From sequence record OM386654.1: DNA of 64,000 bases. One strand, given 5' to 3'. The DNA comes from Escherichia phage vB_EcoM_ESCO9. Every line of letters starts with the position of its first letter. Position 1 is the first letter of the stretch. The translations under genes and the position numbers were made by a program. Under the pieces are notes generated by a model. The model made no database searches, was not told the origin of the DNA, and saw only the letters and a list, made by a program, of their open reading frames with translations. Positions 45,460 to 48,498 of this stretch are shown here, in pieces.

Positions 45460-45535
45460 TGGTCGTGGTAAACGGAGTCGAACCGTTGTTTCTCGATTAT
45501 CGGTCGAGTGTACTAACCATCTGTACGATACCACA
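45460..45535 (-). tRNA. tRNA-Ile (anticodon GAT), C at position 33
   Basis: Hand fold: acceptor UGUGGUA/UACCACG, D-stem GUAC, anticodon stem CUCGA/UCGAG with loop CCGAUAA, T-arm AACGG-UUCGACU-CCGUU, CCA encoded. Confidence 0.5.
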
Positions 45536-45540
45536 ATAAT

Positions 45541-45626
45541 TGGCAGCAAGGTGAGGAATCGAACCCCCTGATCTATGGTTTGGAGCCATATTGAGTACCA
45601 TACTCTTTTAAATCTACCCGGCTATG
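45541..45626 (-). tRNA. tRNA-like element, possibly degenerate (candidate anticodon CCA, Trp)
   Basis: T-loop GGUUCGAUUCC and 3' CCA present; hairpin UAUGG-CUCCAAA-CCAUA; no 5' strand closing the acceptor stem found. Confidence 0.3.
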
Positions 45627-45681
45627 AGTTCCTTGAAGTGTCAATGTAATTTAATCATTACACCAGAAGGGAGGTATTTAT

Positions 45682-45760
45682 TGGAGGCGGGAGTAGGATT
45701 TGAACCTACGATCTCCAGCATATGAAACTGGCGAGGACGACCAGACTCCTCTATCCCGCA
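45682..45760 (-). tRNA. tRNA-Met (anticodon CAT; elongator Met or Ile-lysidine type)
   Basis: Anticodon arm CCAGU-UUCAUAU-GCUGG; T-arm GUAGG-UUCAAAU-CCUAC; D-stem GAGG/CCUC; CCA encoded; 1-72 U.C mismatch. Confidence 0.6.
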
Positions 45761-45775
45761 CAATCTGTAATAATT

Positions 45776-45860
45776 TGGTAGCTAAGGTGAGACTCGAACT
45801 CACAATCCCTTGGGGCAATACGTTCTAAGCGTATCGTGTATACCATTCCACCACTTAGCC
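45776..45860 (-). tRNA. tRNA-Leu (anticodon TAG), long variable arm
   Basis: 85 nt; 3-bp D-stem; anticodon arm AUACG-CUUAGAA-CGUAU; variable stem CCC/GGG; T-arm GUGAG-UUCGAGU-CUCAC; CCA encoded. Confidence 0.7.
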
Positions 45861-45937
45861 ATAATAAGTACACCACTGTAAGAAGCCTCAATGTGCTATT
45901 GACAGTTAACCAAGTCTACTCCTTGGATGGTGTTATT

Positions 45938-46012
45938 TGGTGCAGAGAGATGGTAACGATCCATCCTTTCTACCTTTTCAGGGTAGCACTAATCCGTCTC
46001 AGCTATCTCTGC
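45938..46012 (-). tRNA. tRNA-Phe (anticodon GAA), non-canonical T-loop
   Basis: Perfect acceptor GCAGAGA/UCUCUGC; anticodon arm CUACC-CUGAAAA-GGUAG; T-loop AUCGUUA; CCA encoded. Confidence 0.55.
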
Positions 46013-46017
46013 AAATT

Positions 46018-46093
46018 TGGTCAGTGCGGCAGGACTCGAACCTGCGACCCGAAGCATCCAAAGCTCCCACGCTACCAACTGCGCTACGCACTG
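46018..46093 (-). tRNA. tRNA-Pro (anticodon TGG)
   Basis: Anticodon loop UUUGGAU; T-arm GCAGG-UUCGAGU-CCUGC; D-arm GCGC-AGUUGGUA-GCGU; CCA encoded. Confidence 0.7.
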
Positions 46094-46100
46094 TAAATAT

Positions 46101-46175
46101 TGGCTGGAGATCTAGGAATCGAACCTAGTCATCACGACTTCAAAGGCCGTTGCCTTCCCACTAGGCTAATCTCCA
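46101..46175 (-). tRNA. tRNA-Gln (anticodon TTG)
   Basis: Anticodon arm ACGGC-CUUUGAA-GUCGU; T-arm CUAGG-UUCGAUU-CCUAG; D-stem GCCU/AGGC; CCA encoded. Confidence 0.7.
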
Positions 46176-46606
46176 ATAAATTACTTCAGTGTTACCACAA
46201 AGTGACGAACTGCTTTTCGTGCAGCAGAAGCCAGAGGCTTAGCATACTTAAGTTCATCTTTTTCCATTATAAATTCTCTTTTAAATGAAAATGCAGGACT
46301 TATTGGCATTGCCTGCGCAAGCCCTCAAGGGGAACATAGGTTTTTGTATATTTAACGACCAGGATAACCATAAACCCGTCATCATTCACATTCAAGAGGT
46401 ACACCATAAAACTGCCGGGGTCTTAAAACTATAATGATTCGCAAATCATTAATCAGACAGTTCGATGGCTCCTCGATTTTAGCTCACACTAAGGCAGTGA
46501 ATCTCCAATAAACTAAAAAATCACTTAAAAAGAACCGCTAGAGTTTGAAGGAGAAAACCATGAGCGAAAAGAGAAATTTTCTCTAGCGATTCCATTTAAA
46601 TAATCT

Positions 46607-46681
46607 TGGAGCGAGTAACAGGACTTGAACCTGCACCTGGAGGGTGGAAACCTCATATGCTACCATTAACACTATACCCGC
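46607..46681 (-). tRNA. tRNA-Gly (anticodon TCC)
   Basis: Anticodon loop UUUCCAC; T-arm GCAGG-UUCAAGU-CCUGU; acceptor GCGGGUA/UACUCGC with one G.U; CCA encoded. Confidence 0.65.
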
Positions 46682-46689
46682 TTAACAAT

Positions 46690-46722
46690 ATTACTCTAAC
46701 ATATTATTAGCCCCTTTGTCAA
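46690..46722 (-). promoter_or_regulatory. sigma70-like promoter for a tRNA transcription unit (-35 TTGACA, 17 nt, -10 TTAGAG)
   Basis: Minus-strand TTGACA at 46717-46722; -10 at 46694-46699; tRNA-Gly 5' end about 13 nt downstream. Confidence 0.4.
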
Positions 46723-46736
46723 GAGGCTTTTAATAT

Positions 46737-47066
46737 TTATTTTAAAATAGTAGATGCACCACGTCTGTTTAGATATGCAACCGTAAAGCTCAAATCACCT
46801 ATTTCTTCAGGTTCCCACTGACCTTCTAAGCCATAACAAGAACAATGATATGCGTGTACTTCATAAAACAAAGATGTTTTCATATCATAGAAATAAACGT
46901 GAGATTCGCCTTCATAATATGCACAATCATAAGTGGCAGAAAGAATTACAATGTTATCCTTATCTAACTCTACTTCATAATATCTTTCAACATCTTCAAT
47001 ATCATCAAAACCATCGAAAACATTGATATTAAAATATTTCTCTAACTCTTTTTCTGTCACATACAC
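46737..47066 (-). CDS. hypothetical protein (109 aa) embedded in the tRNA array
   Basis: ORF track; Tyr/Cys/His-rich (HAYHCSCYG). Confidence 0.45.
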   Translation of the reverse strand: MYVTEKELEKYFNINVFDGFDDIEDVERYYEVELDKDNIVILSATYDCAYYEGESHVYFYDMKTSLFYEVHAYHCSCYGLEGQWEPEEIGDLSFTVAYLNRRGASTILK

Positions 47067-47083
47067 CCCCTTTAGAGTTAAAT

Positions 47084-47329: not shown

Positions 47330-47416
47330 TGGTGCAGGTAGTTGGACTCGAACCAACGAAGCCCCGAAGGGCAGGAGATTTACAGTCTCCAGCAATTGCC
47401 GCTATGCGATACCTAC
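47330..47416 (-). tRNA. tRNA-Tyr (anticodon GTA), long variable arm
   Basis: 87 nt; anticodon arm GGAGA-CUGUAAA-UCUCC; variable hairpin UGCCC-UUCG-GGGC; T-arm GUUGG-UUCGAGU-CCAAC; CCA encoded. Confidence 0.7.
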
Positions 47417-47421
47417 GTGTT

Positions 47422-47496
47422 TGGTACATCGTGAAGGATTCGAACCTTCGACCTTGGAGTTAAAAGCCCTTGCTCTACCAACTAAGCTAACGATGT
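47422..47496 (-). tRNA. tRNA-like with ambiguous anticodon arm (UUA in standard register, UUU/Lys if shifted by one)
   Basis: Good acceptor, D-arm GCUU-AGUUGGUA-GAGC, T-arm GAAGG-UUCGAAU-CCUUC and CCA; anticodon region AAGGGCUUUUAACUCCAAGG forms only a 3-bp stem in either register. Confidence 0.45.
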
Positions 47497-47624
47497 ATAA
47501 ATTATCTTTAAAATAGCCAGTGTTTGCGGCACTGACTATGAGGTATCGGTAAAATGGCTGCCACCATCTGCCGAAAGTTTACTCTGCTAAAGTAAGTAGC
47601 CTCAACGCTACATTAAAGATAACT

Positions 47625-47710
47625 TGGCGGTAGATGTAGGACTTGAACCTACACGCCGTTTCCGACGACAGTTTAGCAAACTGTTGTGGCTACCATTTCA
47701 CCAATCTACC
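47625..47710 (-). tRNA. tRNA-Ser (anticodon GCT), long variable arm
   Basis: 86 nt; D-stem GUG/CAC; anticodon arm ACAGU-UUGCUAA-ACUGU; variable hairpin; T-arm GUAGG-UUCAAGU-CCUAC; CCA encoded. Confidence 0.7.
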
Positions 47711-47718
47711 GTTTTTAA

Positions 47719-47871
47719 TTATTCAAAACAACCGGAATCTTTTTGTTCTGCTTTTACCATACGAATATTTTTACCATCTTCAGATTGTTGAAGATTAGAA
47801 TACTCATAAACAACTTTATTATTTACAATCTTAACTCCGGTAACAACCTGTCCAATAGTTTTATAATTCAT
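47719..47871 (-). CDS. small hypothetical protein (50 aa) embedded in the tRNA array
   Basis: ATG at 47871 preceded by AGGAG; the track's longer ORF (to 47919) would overlap tRNA-Ser(TGA). Confidence 0.4.
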   Translation of the reverse strand: MNYKTIGQVVTGVKIVNNKVVYEYSNLQQSEDGKNIRMVKAEQKDSGCFE

Positions 47872-47889
47872 AAAGCTCCTAGTTGAATT

Positions 47890-47979
47890 TGGAGGAAGAT
47901 AATGGAGTCGAACCATCACCGTATCACTACAATGGGCCAGGGTTCAAACCTGGTTGCGCACCGCTGCGCCCTACCTTCC
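47890..47979 (-). tRNA. tRNA-Ser (anticodon TGA), long variable arm
   Basis: 90 nt; anticodon arm CCAGG-UUUGAAC-CCUGG; T-arm GAUGG-UUCGACU-CCAUU; acceptor GGAAGGU/AUCUUCC with one G.U; CCA encoded. Confidence 0.65.
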
Positions 47980-47989
47980 CGTTATCATA

Positions 47990-48024
47990 CTTTAAATCTA
48001 ACATAAAACTATCTTGCTTGTCAA
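47990..48024 (-). promoter_or_regulatory. sigma70-like promoter for a tRNA transcription unit (-35 TTGACA, 17 nt, -10 TTAGAT)
   Basis: Minus-strand TTGACA at 48019-48024; -10 at 47996-48001; tRNA-Ser 5' end about 17 nt downstream. Confidence 0.4.
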
Positions 48025-48042
48025 GTAGTTTTTAAAACTTTT

Positions 48043-48124
48043 TGGCCGGGGTGACAGGATTCGAACCTGCATACTCCAATTACTCGGTTAACGCCTGATT
48101 AGAAGTCAGGTGAGATACACCCCG
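48043..48124 (-). tRNA. atypical tRNA-like (anticodon arm consistent with Arg-TCT; no recognisable D-arm)
   Basis: Acceptor CGGGGUG/CACCCCG, T-arm GCAGG-UUCGAAU-CCUGU, CCA, hairpin CCUGA-CUUCUAA-UCAGG; only 7 nt between acceptor and that hairpin, 23 nt after it. Confidence 0.4.
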
Positions 48125-48197
48125 TTTTTATAATGACTATAACAAAAAACTAAGTAAATGTCAAGATATTTTTTACTAAAATTACTATTTAAATTGA

Positions 48198-48303
48198 AGC
48201 CTAGTTATGGAATCGAACCATATTTCGTATTTAGTTAGACAAAGCGGTCTAACATATTTTTCAGGCTTTGATGGCCTCGGAATTACCAAATACCCTACTA
48301 GGC
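48198..48303 (-). tRNA. atypical 106-nt tRNA-like element; candidate anticodon loop CAUCAAA (UCA) in my fold
   Basis: Perfect 7-bp acceptor GCCUAGU/ACUAGGC; T-arm UAUGG-UUCGAUU-CCAUA; D-region GGUAUU-UGGU-AAUUCC; hairpin AGGC-CAUCAAA-GCCU; extra perfect 7-bp hairpin GUUAGAC-CGCUUU-GUCUAAC; no CCA encoded. Confidence 0.4.
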
Positions 48304-48305
48304 GT

Positions 48306-48391
48306 TGGTGCAAGTGGAGGGATTCGAACCCTCAATCATTTAAGCGTTGCGTTTTAAGCACAATGTGTATCACCAATTCCACCACACTTGC
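48306..48391 (-). tRNA. tRNA-Leu (anticodon TAA), long variable arm
   Basis: 86 nt; D-stem GUG/CAC; anticodon arm UUGUG-CUUAAAA-CGCAA; T-arm GAGGG-UUCGAAU-CCCUC; CCA encoded. Confidence 0.7.
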
Positions 48392-48422
48392 GTATAGGAG
48401 ATGCATAGCACCTCCTTTTAAA

Positions 48423-48498
48423 TGGTGGTTCCCCAGGGTTACAATCCCTGCCCTCGACACTTATGAGGTGTGCGCTCTCGTCAGTGAGCTATGGAACC
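48423..48498 (-). tRNA. tRNA-Met (anticodon CAT), second copy, non-canonical T-loop
   Basis: Acceptor GGUUCCA/GGGAACC; D-arm GCUC/GAGC; anticodon loop CUCAUAA; T-arm CAGGG-AUUGUAA-CCCUG; CCA encoded. Confidence 0.55.

What the first reader, a model, noticed from the sequence alone, without database searches (positions are those of the whole stretch)
45460..48498. Dense minus-strand tRNA array with internal promoters and non-canonical members
About 19 tRNA or tRNA-like genes lie in 3 kb, most ending in an encoded CCA and separated by only 3-10 nt. Confident hand folds give Ile-GAT, Met-CAT (two copies), Leu-TAG, Leu-TAA, Phe-GAA, Pro-TGG, Gln-TTG, Gly-TCC, Thr-TGT, Tyr-GTA, Ser-GCT and Ser-TGA. 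Several are odd: an Asn-GTT-like tRNA with a 15-nt hairpin variable arm (47238..47322), an Arg-TCT-like one with no D-arm (48043..48124), T-loops AUCGUUA and AUUGUAA, and two degenerate copies (45541..45626, 47160..47237). The array is cut into at least three transcription units by TTGACA-N17-TTAGAK promoters.
Basis: seen in the sequence. Interest (0 to 1): 0.45.

Follow-up and report, generated by a model that had tools for sequence, protein, structure and literature searches.

The report
Phage tRNA cluster with rewired tRNA-Arg
This is the already-annotated tRNA gene cluster of a phi92-like E. coli phage, but one member that annotators miss belongs to a widespread, phage-only family of arginine tRNAs that lack the normal D hairpin and fold in a rewired way.

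Summary
ARAGORN minus-strand tRNAs in 45460..48498 and Rfam adds a sixteenth. All 13 hand-called anticodons are right and all 16 genes encode CCA. Only 4 of 15 junctions are 5-7 nt.

The window is 97-99% identical to Justusliebigvirus (phi92-like) coliphages, where this 15-16 tRNA cluster is already annotated and published. Its layout matches the T5/BF23 tRNA region: tRNAs, tRNA-like RNAs, small ORFs and internal promoters. That part is ordinary.

Four TTGACA / extended -10 promoters lie in the array. No terminator-like site separates them before 45068..45044.

The "Arg-TCT-like tRNA with no D-arm" (48043..48124) is the interesting part. It is neither decayed nor unique. I collected 65 distinct relatives from many phage lineages, and all carry arginine anticodons (UCU, CCU, ACG). 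The acceptor, anticodon and T stems covary strongly. Positions 11-13 covary with a triplet 3' of the anticodon arm, forming a long-range helix in place of the D hairpin.

ARAGORN never calls these genes, and almost all records leave them unannotated. AGA makes up 27% of this phage's Arg codons. I infer a working AGA decoder; charging is untested.

The Asn tRNA's long variable arm is real and covaries. The two "degenerate copies" are a sub-threshold tRNA-Trp-like gene and a relic.

The parts
48802..48831 (-). Promoter-like site P1 (TTGACA-N18-TAAGAT with TG), upstream of the 88-aa ORF and the first tRNAs
48506..48772 (-). Small ORF, 88 aa, unknown function (phrog_15056)
48423..48498 (-). tRNA with CAU anticodon, T-loop AUUGUAA and a D-loop without GG. 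Positional orthologs in relatives look like tRNA-Ile2.
   Evidence: missed by Rfam at the gathering score
48306..48391 (-). tRNA-Leu(UAA)
48196..48303 (-). X5: 108-nt tRNA-like RNA. It has a 7-bp acceptor-like helix, a TTCGATT T-arm, a 7-bp extra hairpin, the loop CATCAAA, and ends in TTCA. It is absent from phi92.
   Evidence: no Rfam hit
48136..48164 (-). Promoter-like site P2 (TTGACA-N17-TATAGT, 11 of 12 matches, TG present). It ends 12 nt before the tRNA-Arg-like gene.
48043..48124 (-). ArgL: non-canonical tRNA-Arg(UCU), 82 nt. It has a 7-bp acceptor stem, no D hairpin, a 3-bp long-range helix (11-13 with 40-42) that extends the anticodon stem, the connector UAAUUGGAGUAU, a canonical T-arm and GCCA at the 3' end.
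47995..48024 (-). Promoter-like site P3 (TTGACA-N18-TAGATT with TG), upstream of tRNA-Ser(UGA)
47890..47979 (-). tRNA-Ser(UGA), 90 nt, 86.7% identical to BF23/T5 tRNA-Ser1
   Evidence: below the Rfam gathering score
47719..47871 (-). Small ORF, 50 aa (phrog_22441, equivalent to Phi92_gp111)
47625..47710 (-). tRNA-Ser(GCU)
47500..47624 (-). X4: structured non-tRNA spacer RNA of about 125 nt, with a closing helix and three or four hairpins
47422..47496 (-). tRNA-Lys(UUU). Its anticodon stem is weak and differs between near-identical relatives.
47330..47416 (-). tRNA-Tyr(GUA)
47238..47322 (-). tRNA-Asn(GUU) with a long variable arm (class II shape)
47160..47237 (-). X3: relic tRNA-like spacer. 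Only the T-arm-like half is conserved in relatives.
47084..47158 (-). tRNA-Thr(UGU)
46737..47066 (-). ORF, 109 aa, unknown function (phrog_8792, equivalent to Phi92_gp112)
46693..46722 (-). Promoter-like site P4 (TTGACA-N18-TAGAGT with TG), upstream of tRNA-Gly
46607..46681 (-). tRNA-Gly(UCC)
46168..46515 (-). Insert 98% identical to the Tequatrovirus (T4-like) rIII region. The ORF at 46181..46309 is a C-terminal rIII fragment.
46101..46175 (-). tRNA-Gln(UUG)
46018..46093 (-). tRNA-Pro(UGG), about 96% identical to T5-like tRNA-Pro
45938..46012 (-). tRNA-Phe(GAA) with T-loop AUCGUUA (flagged as a pseudogene in the phi92 and VEcB records)
45776..45860 (-). tRNA-Leu(UAG)
45682..45760 (-). tRNA with CAU anticodon and a 1:72 mismatch. 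It resembles the BF23/T5 initiator tRNA-fMet.
45541..45623 (-). X1: tRNA-Trp(CCA)-like gene with an aberrant D region. It has A1-U72, G73, the loop CUCCAAA and an encoded CCA.
45460..45535 (-). tRNA-Ile(GAU) with C33 (loop CCGAUAA)
45044..45068 (-). Terminator-like hairpin plus T-run after the 89-aa ORF (45079..45348). This is the only terminator-like site downstream of the array that is not part of an RNA element.

Best explanation
The region is the tRNA gene cluster of a Justusliebigvirus (phi92-like) virulent E. coli myophage. It holds 15 canonical or near-canonical tRNAs, one non-canonical tRNA-Arg(UCU), three tRNA-like or relic elements, one structured spacer RNA, four small ORFs and a T4-derived rIII fragment. 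Four sigma-70-type promoters with perfect TTGACA and extended -10 elements feed rightward-to-leftward transcription that probably reads through to one terminator at 45068..45044. This transcription model is inferred from sequence only. Host RNase P and 3' processing enzymes would release the RNAs, by analogy with T4 and T5. All 16 genes already encode CCA. The tRNAs read the A-ending and rare codons that this 38% GC phage uses far more than E. coli does, and AGA is 27% of its Arg codons. The element at 48043..48124 is the phage's AGA decoder. It belongs to a phage-only family of arginine tRNAs in which the D hairpin is replaced. Nucleotides 11-13 pair with a triplet 3' of the anticodon arm, which lengthens the anticodon branch. 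A conserved 12-nt connector (UAANUGGAGUAU) carries a GGA that could stand in for G18, G19 and the ArgRS determinant A20. The fold is shown by covariation. Aminoacylation and decoding are inferred.
For: Identity of the cluster: the window is 96.8-99.4% identical over 3.7 kb to the arall, muut and phi92 genomes, which annotate the same tRNAs. The published Justusliebigvirus list gives 16 tRNAs and no Arg (PMC12210895). tRNA calls come, and promoters. Codon use: AGA 27% of Arg, ACA 44%, CAA 72%, CCA 43%, TTA 28%, CTA 14%, ATA 14%; AGA is 3.6% of Arg codons in E. coli K-12 (PMC9965538). The same architecture is annotated in the BF23/T5 tRNA region.

ArgL family: 65 distinct sequences, all with Arg anticodons (TCT 53, CCT 8, ACG 4). 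There are 55 distinct acceptor stems, and 60 of 65 have 7 of 7 pairs. On a 39-sequence alignment 94.9% of cells pair, 18 of 21 pairs show compensatory change, and 0 of 500 shuffles reach the observed values. For the long-range helix, pair 12-41 is UA 29, AU 7, GC 3 and pair 13-40 is CG 34, UA 3, GC 2, with none unpaired. A covariance model separates the family (79-106 bits) from ordinary tRNAs (35 bits or less).

The bacterial Arg identity set is A/G73, A20, C35 and U/G36 (PMC9976931). The family has C35 always, U or G at 36 always, and A or G at 73 in 57 of 65. In 19 of 21 non-redundant arrays that also hold canonical Arg tRNAs, the family member carries a different Arg anticodon. Sister genera carry a canonical 75-nt Arg-tct gene at the syntenic place. 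A T5-type canonical tRNA-Arg shares its acceptor stem and T-arm with ArgL. A near-consensus promoter sits directly upstream.
Against: There is no expression, processing or charging data. ARAGORN does not call ArgL in any mode. E. coli ArgRS depends mainly on A20 in a D loop that this RNA does not have, and the proposed substitute A in UGGAG is invariant, so it could not be tested. Two arrays (L035, L313) carry both a canonical Arg-tct gene and a family member with the same anticodon, which fits a non-decoding role as well. All family members were retrieved with sequence patterns, so invariance of the pattern positions is partly built in. No terminators or transcription starts were mapped.
Confidence: 0.8

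Rival explanations
1. The D-hairpin-less Arg element is a tRNA mimic rather than a decoder. It would act as a decoy or sponge for a host tRNA-Arg-directed nuclease or enzyme, or as a ligand for a phage protein, and would not take part in translation.
For: It lacks the D loop that carries the main ArgRS determinant (PMC9976931). It coexists with a canonical same-anticodon tRNA in 2 arrays. Phage tRNAs are known to counter tRNA-cleaving defences (PMC10264068, PMC11555353 and PMC11464382, listed). The 23-nt core is extremely conserved, as expected for a protein-binding surface.
Against: The anticodon complements the canonical Arg set in 19 of 21 arrays. C35, U/G36 and a purine at 73 are kept. The 7/5 acceptor/T branch, the canonical T-loop and an encoded CCA in 41 of 65 members are what EF-Tu and the ribosome need. 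This phage has no other tRNA for its 27% AGA codons.
Confidence: 0.2
2. The main role of the whole array is to replace host tRNAs destroyed by tRNA-targeting defence systems rather than to compensate for codon usage. On this view the odd shapes (no D hairpin, long variable arm on Asn, C33 in Ile, aberrant T-loops) are escape variants.
For: The 5' strand of the tRNA-Lys anticodon stem differs between phages that are otherwise about 99% identical (GGG-C, GGGGC, GGTGC, GGGTC). In arall the whole D and anticodon arms are swapped. Ile has C33, and one relative switches GAU to CAU. Lys, Tyr and Asn tRNAs are known targets of anticodon nucleases (papers listed).
Against: The anticodon set matches the phage's over-used A-ending codons well, so codon compensation alone explains the repertoire. 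No defence system or cleavage was tested. The two roles are not exclusive.
Confidence: 0.3
3. The non-canonical members, including ArgL, are decaying pseudogenes in a recombination-prone region.
For: The region has HNH endonuclease insertions in relatives and a T4 rIII fragment. X3 keeps only a T-arm, and its 5' half differs among close relatives. X5 is absent from phi92 and has no distant homologs. NCBI annotation flags Phe and Ser-tga as pseudogenes in phi92.
Against: For ArgL this is excluded by 18 covarying pairs across 39 sequences from many phage lineages. For Asn it is excluded by compensatory changes in the variable hairpin across three genera. The idea remains plausible only for X3 and possibly X1 and X5.
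Confidence: 0.1

Closest known systems
tRNA gene region of phages T5 / BF23 (record NC_042564)
   Same: It is a one-strand cluster of tRNAs interspersed with several promoters, small ORFs, HNH homing endonucleases, 'tRNA-like RNAs with unknown functions' (RNA1-3) and stable RNAs (I, III, IV, 2H). Some genes are shared: tRNA-Pro is about 96% identical, Ser-tga is 86.7% identical, and the acceptor and T-arm of tRNA-Arg match. X4 homologs sit upstream of tRNA-Tyr in T5-like phages.
   Different: This array has 16 tRNAs rather than about 25, in a different order. BF23 has no ArgL-type gene (the best R1 model score in BF23 is 34.7 bits). The BF23 tRNA-like RNAs share no detectable sequence with X1, X3 or X5.
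Annotated tRNA cluster of Justusliebigvirus (phi92, muut, arall, BME3)
   Same: The DNA is 97-99% identical and carries the same 15-16 tRNAs in the same order.
   Different: Those annotations and the published list contain no Arg tRNA, no Trp-like gene and no spacer RNA. ArgL is labelled 'none', or 'tRNA-OTHER' in 4 records.
D-arm-lacking mitochondrial tRNA-Ser(AGY/GCU)
   Same: There is no D hairpin, the acceptor and T branch are retained, and the anticodon branch is lengthened to keep the overall dimensions. The lengthened branch in the mitochondrial tRNA is from my own knowledge; D-armless mt-tRNAs are reviewed in PMC9976931.
   Different: Those tRNAs are organellar, serine-specific and depend on a dedicated mitochondrial synthetase. 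ArgL is encoded by phages of bacteria, is arginine-specific, keeps a canonical T-loop and a conserved GG-containing connector, and would have to use the host's ordinary ArgRS.
allo-tRNAs and other non-canonical cloverleaves (Mukai et al., PMC5389517)
   Same: They are non-standard tRNA architectures found in bacteria and their phages by sequence mining, often inside tRNA clusters.
   Different: allo-tRNAs have 8/4 or 9/3 acceptor/T branches, a long variable arm, serine identity and diverse anticodons. ArgL has a 7/5 branch, no D hairpin and only Arg anticodons.
T4 tRNA cluster with the stable RNAs C and D
   Same: It is a phage tRNA cluster that also encodes small stable RNAs of unknown function. 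From my own knowledge, all eight T4 anticodon specificities (Arg-UCU, Ile, Thr-UGU, Ser-UGA, Pro-UGG, Gly-UCC, Leu-UAA, Gln-UUG) are represented here.
   Different: No DNA similarity to T4 tRNA genes was seen. The only T4-like DNA in the array is the rIII fragment. T4 tRNA-Arg is a canonical cloverleaf (my own knowledge).

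Membership tests
Justusliebigvirus tRNA cluster | Near-identical DNA with the same tRNA genes in the same order, next to the nicotinamide phosphoribosyltransferase gene | tested here: met
   96.8-99.4% identity over 95-100% of the 3.7 kb. The gene lists match. NAMPT lies at 49245..50978.
Canonical tRNA (Rfam RF00005 / cloverleaf), applied to 48043..48124 | Score at or above the Rfam gathering threshold | tested here: met
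   38.6 bits against 29. The alignment deletes the D arm (15 model positions against 4 nt) and inserts 20 nt in the variable region.
Canonical tRNA (Rfam RF00005 / cloverleaf), applied to 48043..48124 | D stem-loop between positions 10 and 25 | tested here: not met
   Only UAUCUCA lies between the acceptor and anticodon stems. ARAGORN fails in standard, relaxed and mitochondrial modes.
Canonical tRNA (Rfam RF00005 / cloverleaf), applied to 48043..48124 | 7-bp acceptor stem, 5-bp anticodon stem with a 7-nt loop (U33, purine 37), and a 5-bp T stem with a TTCRA loop | tested here: met
   All three helices covary across 39 sequences at 96-99.6% paired. The loop is CUUCUAA.
Bacterial arginine identity set (A/G73, A20, C35, U/G36; PMC9976931) | C35 and U/G36 | tested here: met
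   The anticodons are UCU, CCU or ACG in 65 of 65 family members. The window has UCU.
Bacterial arginine identity set (A/G73, A20, C35, U/G36; PMC9976931) | A or G at the discriminator position 73 | tested here: met
   The window has G. In the family the counts are G 32, A 25, T 7, C 1.
Bacterial arginine identity set (A/G73, A20, C35, U/G36; PMC9976931) | A20 in the D loop | tested here: inconclusive
   There is no D loop. An invariant UGGA in the connector could supply G18, G19 and A20, but because it never varies its role cannot be judged from sequence.
Bacterial arginine identity set (A/G73, A20, C35, U/G36; PMC9976931) | Arginylation by ArgRS | not testable with these tools
   This needs in vitro charging or acid-gel analysis.
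Sigma-70 promoters with extended -10 | TTGACA, a 17-18 nt spacer, TG, and a -10 hexamer | tested here: met
   Four sites match 10-11 of 12 positions and have TG. The motif is enriched at 6 against 0.10 expected.
Sigma-70 promoters with extended -10 | Mapped transcription start | not testable with these tools
   This needs 5' RACE or dRNA-seq.
Class II (long variable arm) tRNA, applied to Asn-GUU 47238..47322 | Base-paired variable arm maintained by compensatory change | tested here: met
   The hairpin is GAAC/GTTC, GTTC/GAAC and GAGA/TCTC in three genera. Other long-arm Asn genes occur in unrelated viral contigs.
tRNA-Sec / UGA suppressor, considered for X5 48196..48303 | Match to the tRNA or tRNA-Sec covariance model, and U33 in the anticodon loop | tested here: not met
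   There is no Rfam hit at E up to 10. The loop is CAUCAAA with A33.

The most novel reading that the evidence does not exclude
The element at 48043..48124 represents a functional class of arginine-accepting tRNAs that is specific to phages. Its core is rewired into a three-way junction: there is no D hairpin, the anticodon branch is extended by a long-range helix, and a connector supplies the GG/A20 functions. These would be the first D-hairpin-less elongator tRNAs outside organelles. They would be charged by an ordinary bacterial ArgRS, and may be kept because the altered shape escapes a host tRNA-directed defence or host tRNA enzymes.
Probability: 0.45. Interest if true: 0.8.

Novelty: new variant of a known kind. 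Interest (0 to 1): 0.55.

Why it matters
The array itself is textbook phage biology and is already annotated. The tRNA-Arg family it contains is not.

Standard tRNA finders miss it. As a result, published tRNA inventories and codon-usage analyses of phi92-like, FelixO1-like and several jumbo and T5-like phages omit the AGA decoder.

If these RNAs are charged and used, they show that a bacterial ArgRS, EF-Tu, RNase P and the ribosome accept a tRNA without a D hairpin. That bears on tRNA identity rules, since A20 is the main Arg determinant. It also bears on tRNA engineering and on how phages evade tRNA-targeting immunity. The covariation-defined fold makes all of this directly testable.

Tried and rejected
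1. The local hairpin 38-40/47-49 predicted by RNAfold inside ArgL was rejected. It is 88.9% paired, has no two-sided changes and has 13 unpaired cells. The competing long-range pairs 11-42, 12-41 and 13-40 are 100% paired with 15 two-sided changes.

2. X5 as a Sec or opal-suppressor tRNA was rejected. It has no Rfam hit, has A33, ends in TTCA, and has no homologs outside a subset of the genus.

3. ARAGORN in mitochondrial and relaxed modes does not recover ArgL. These modes do call X1 as Trp(cca), but they also produce spurious calls, for example an 'mtRNA-Arg(tct)' on X3 and opposite-strand calls.

4. Retrieving related arrays through the neighbouring NAMPT protein gave only 4 loci.

5. The genome-contig scan with a 15-base pattern returned almost only chance matches. 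One real member was found, on a 36-kb MAG contig labelled Gammaproteobacteria.

6. No ArgL match exists in 5,426 complete E. coli genomes.

7. Short-word BLAST of X1, X2, X3 and X5 against 670 phage tRNAs found only T-loop matches, so their ancestry is unresolved.

8. The strict X4 pattern scan of IMG/VR found only 4 loci.

9. Eight literature searches found no description of a D-hairpin-less phage tRNA-Arg. This does not exclude one in journals outside the held library.

Full report
**Observation.** ARAGORN finds 15 tRNA genes, all on the minus strand, between 45460 and 48498. Rfam's tRNA model finds 14, at E-values of 1e-7 to 1e-11. One of these, at 48046..48124 (38.6 bits, gathering score 29), is not called by ARAGORN. 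All 16 genes end in an encoded NCCA followed by A.

The close spacing is only partly true. Lys|Tyr, Tyr|Asn, Gln|Pro and Pro|Phe are 5-7 nt apart. The other eleven junctions are 15-431 nt.

**What the region is.** The 3.7 kb is 96.8-99.4% identical to Justusliebigvirus genomes (phi92, muut, arall and about 50 others). Those records annotate the same tRNAs in the same order. A 2025 description of one member lists 16 tRNAs, none for Arg (PMC12210895). So the array is an already-known feature of phi92-like virulent coliphages.

Its architecture is the one annotated in detail for the T5/BF23 tRNA region. That region also has tRNAs on one strand, several internal promoters, small ORFs, HNH endonucleases, 'tRNA-like RNAs with unknown functions' and stable RNAs.

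**Anatomy.** Four minus-strand sites combine a perfect TTGACA with a TG-extended -10. They start at 48831, 48164, 48024 and 46722. The motif TTGACA-N15-TGnTAnnnT occurs 6 times in the window against 0.10 expected. The site starting at 48164 (11 of 12 matches) ends 12 nt before the Arg-like gene.

The only terminator-like site that is not part of an RNA element is at 45068..45044, after a small ORF. The promoters therefore probably add to read-through transcription rather than define closed units. This is inference; nothing was mapped.

The embedded ORFs match PHROG families of unknown function. The 431-nt gap between Gly and Gln holds a segment (46168..46515) that is 98% identical to T4-like phages. 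Its 42-aa ORF is the C-terminal fragment of rIII. This segment is missing in VEcB and in one IMG/VR relative. HNH genes are inserted elsewhere in VEcB and SD2. The cluster is clearly a hotspot for mobile DNA.

**Codon use.** The window has 38% GC. In 56 ORFs (17,083 codons), AGA is 27% of Arg codons, ACA 44% of Thr, CAA 72% of Gln, CCA 43% of Pro, TTA 28% and CTA 14% of Leu, ATA 14% of Ile and GGA 20% of Gly. In E. coli K-12, AGA is 3.6% of Arg codons (PMC9965538). The anticodon set therefore fits the classical codon-compensation picture.

**Odd members other than Arg.**
- **Asn-GUU (85 nt).** It has a paired variable arm. The hairpin is GAAC/GTTC here, GTTC/GAAC in a Phapecoctavirus and GAGA/TCTC in a Klebsiella relative. 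The arm is therefore selected. Long-arm Asn genes of unrelated sequence also occur in other viral contigs. Its body resembles the neighbouring Ser-GCU gene, and its discriminator is G. Which synthetase charges it cannot be decided here.
- **X1 (45541..45623).** It is called tRNA-Trp(cca) only at relaxed thresholds. It has A1-U72, G73, U8A9, the loop CUCCAAA, a 5-nt variable loop, a TTCGATT T-loop and CCA, but a malformed D region.
- **X3 (47160..47237).** It keeps only a T-arm-like hairpin, and its 5' half differs among close relatives. It is a relic.
- **X5 (48196..48303).** This 108-nt tRNA-like RNA has a 7-bp acceptor-like helix and a good T-arm. It has no Rfam hit, is absent from phi92, and has no distant homologs.
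- **The two CAU genes.** The one at 45682..45760 resembles the BF23 initiator tRNA in its TGCGGG start and 1:72 mismatch. The one at 48423..48498 has positional orthologs that look like tRNA-Ile2. These assignments rest on resemblance only.

**The Arg-like gene.** The sequence at 48043..48124 reads as follows:
- a 7-bp acceptor stem (CGGGGUG / CACCCCG)
- UAUCUCA where the D arm should be
- an anticodon arm with the loop CUUCUAA
- 23 nt (CGUUAACCGAGUAAUUGGAGUAU)
- a canonical T-arm
- GCCA at the 3' end

A T5-type canonical tRNA-Arg(UCU) shares its acceptor stem, U8A9 and T-arm. Sister genera carry a canonical 75-nt Arg-tct gene at the syntenic position. ArgL is thus a derivative of a normal tRNA-Arg.

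It is not unique to this genus. BLAST finds it in 224 phage records, including Felixounavirus, Asteriusvirus-type jumbo phages, a few Kuravirus, Mydovirus and a Serratia Demerecviridae member. It is almost always unannotated; four records label it 'tRNA-OTHER'.

Pattern scans of IMG/VR brought the total to 65 distinct sequences of 77-82 nt. Their anticodons are exclusively arginine: UCU 53, CCU 8 and ACG 4. There are 55 different acceptor stems, and 60 of 65 have 7 of 7 pairs.

**The ArgL fold.** A scan that left the triplet before UAA unconstrained showed that positions 11-13 covary with it. The observed combinations are CUC/GAG, CGC/GCG, CAC/GUG, CUU/AAG, CAU(C)/(G)AUG and CAG(C or U)/(G)CUG.

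Results on a 39-sequence alignment:

| Measure | Result |
|---|---|
| Cells paired, whole structure | 94.9% |
| Pairs with compensatory change | 18 of 21 |
| Shuffles reaching the observed values | 0 of 500 |
| Pair 11-42 | CG 39 |
| Pair 12-41 | UA 29, AU 7, GC 3 |
| Pair 13-40 | CG 34, UA 3, GC 2 |
| Unpaired cells in these three pairs | none |

The local hairpin predicted by energy minimisation is less well supported. It is 88.9% paired and has no two-sided changes.

The RNA is therefore a three-way junction. A 3-bp (sometimes 4-bp) long-range helix encloses and lengthens the anticodon arm. A conserved 12-nt strand (UAANUGGAGUAU) links that helix to the T-arm.

A covariance model built from the family scores members at 79-106 bits and ordinary tRNAs at 35 bits or less. 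There is no match in 5,426 complete E. coli genomes.

**How ArgL most likely works.** The bacterial arginine identity set is A/G73, A20, C35 and U/G36, with A20 the strongest determinant for E. coli ArgRS (PMC9976931). The family always has C35 and U or G at 36. It has a purine at 73 in 57 of 65 members. An invariant GGA in the connector could provide G18, G19 and A20. That last point is conjecture.

Among 21 non-redundant arrays that also carry canonical Arg tRNAs, the family member has a different Arg anticodon in 19. This is what one expects of a working isoacceptor.

This phage has no other Arg tRNA, uses AGA for 27% of its Arg codons, and places a near-consensus promoter directly upstream of the gene. 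I therefore think a functional AGA decoder is the best reading, at about 0.6. A tRNA mimic or decoy is the main rival. Expression, processing, charging and decoding are all untested.

**Comparison and novelty.** The array is a member of the known Justusliebigvirus cluster and works like the T5 and T4 tRNA regions. The Arg family resembles D-arm-lacking mitochondrial tRNA-Ser in principle, having no D hairpin and a lengthened anticodon branch. It differs in being phage-encoded and arginine-specific, and in keeping a canonical T-loop. It is also unlike allo-tRNAs, which have 8/4 or 9/3 branches and serine identity.

Eight full-text searches found no description of this family. That does not exclude one in literature outside the held library. 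I rate the whole finding as a new variant of a known kind. The cluster is ordinary, and one member defines an undescribed tRNA architecture.

**Caveats.** Family members were collected with sequence patterns, so the invariance of the patterned positions is partly circular. The covarying positions and the UAUCNN segment were not constrained by the patterns. The shuffle controls do not correct for phylogeny, but the slid-partner controls do, and they collapse to 31-45% pairing. The genome-collection scan was truncated and dominated by chance matches. The overall confidence of 0.8 applies to the identity of the cluster and the covariation-defined fold; the decoding role of ArgL alone I put at about 0.6.

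Noticed in passing
window 47500-47624 (-): A structured non-tRNA RNA of about 125 nt lies between tRNA-Ser(GCU) and tRNA-Lys. Its folding z-score is -5.09. Unannotated homologs occur in 183 phage records (Justusliebig-, Phapecocta-, Vequinta- and Certrevirus, and T5-like Tequintavirus, where it lies between a promoter and tRNA-Tyr). In a 9-sequence alignment 95% of cells pair and 5 pairs show compensatory change. No Rfam family matches it.
   Followed up: partly
window 47422-47496 (-); L001 3722-3797, L003 4592-4667, L005 11489-11564, L010 2733-2807: The 5' strand of the tRNA-Lys(UUU) anticodon stem differs among phages that are otherwise about 99% identical (AAGGG-C, AAGGGGC, AAGGTGC, AAGGGTC). 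In arall the D and anticodon arms are replaced wholesale while the acceptor and T-arm stay identical. This could be an arms race with tRNA-Lys nucleases or homopolymer sequencing noise.
   Followed up: partly
window 45460-45535 (-); L003 6221-6296: tRNA-Ile(GAU) has C at position 33 (loop CCGAUAA). An IMG/VR relative has CUCAUAA, a CAU anticodon, in the otherwise identical gene.
   Followed up: no
window 46168-46515: A segment 98% identical to T4-like phages (rIII and its neighbour) is inserted between tRNA-Gly and tRNA-Gln. The ORF at 46181-46309 is only the C-terminal 32 residues of rIII. The segment is absent in VEcB and in L003.
   Followed up: partly
L056 2689-2766; L276, L293, L307; L279-L315: Sub-families of the D-hairpin-less tRNA-Arg carry ACG or CCU anticodons and shorter linkers (UGAAA, AGCC and others) between the anticodon stem and the GAG triplet. 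One contig (L056) carries both a UCU and an ACG member.
   Followed up: partly
L276 1398-1489, L311 6269-6355, L056 67-149, L274 720-811: tRNA-Asn(GUU) genes with long variable arms (83-92 nt) and unrelated sequences recur in other viral contigs. ARAGORN also reports over-long Lys, Gln, Ile, Pro, Thr and Trp genes in these arrays. Class-II-shaped tRNAs with class-I anticodons may be common in phages.
   Followed up: no
L013 1553-1951, L016 1584-2147 (heid, Kamaji; also warpig, SME50, I14.1): HNH endonuclease ORFs abut or overlap the 3' end of the tRNA-Arg-like gene in several unrelated phages. Homing may have helped spread the gene.
   Followed up: no
phage records MG065639, MG065645, MG065656, MG065689; OK283618: Records labelled 'Campylobacter phage' (146 kb) are about 97.5% identical to this E. 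coli phage array. A 'Listeria phage LPML1' (87 kb) carries the FelixO1-type Arg gene. These are probably mislabelled hosts or contaminants.
   Followed up: no
window 48423-48498 (-): This CAU tRNA lacks both the D-loop GG and the T-loop UUC (its T-loop is AUUGUAA), so both partners of the usual elbow contact are changed together. Orthologs in L007 and L008 are canonical and resemble tRNA-Ile2.
   Followed up: no
L007 about 4213-4300 (-): In Phapecoctavirus ECO340P2, a tRNA-Tyr(GUA)-like sequence follows the X4 homolog, but ARAGORN does not call it and the record does not annotate it.
   Followed up: no
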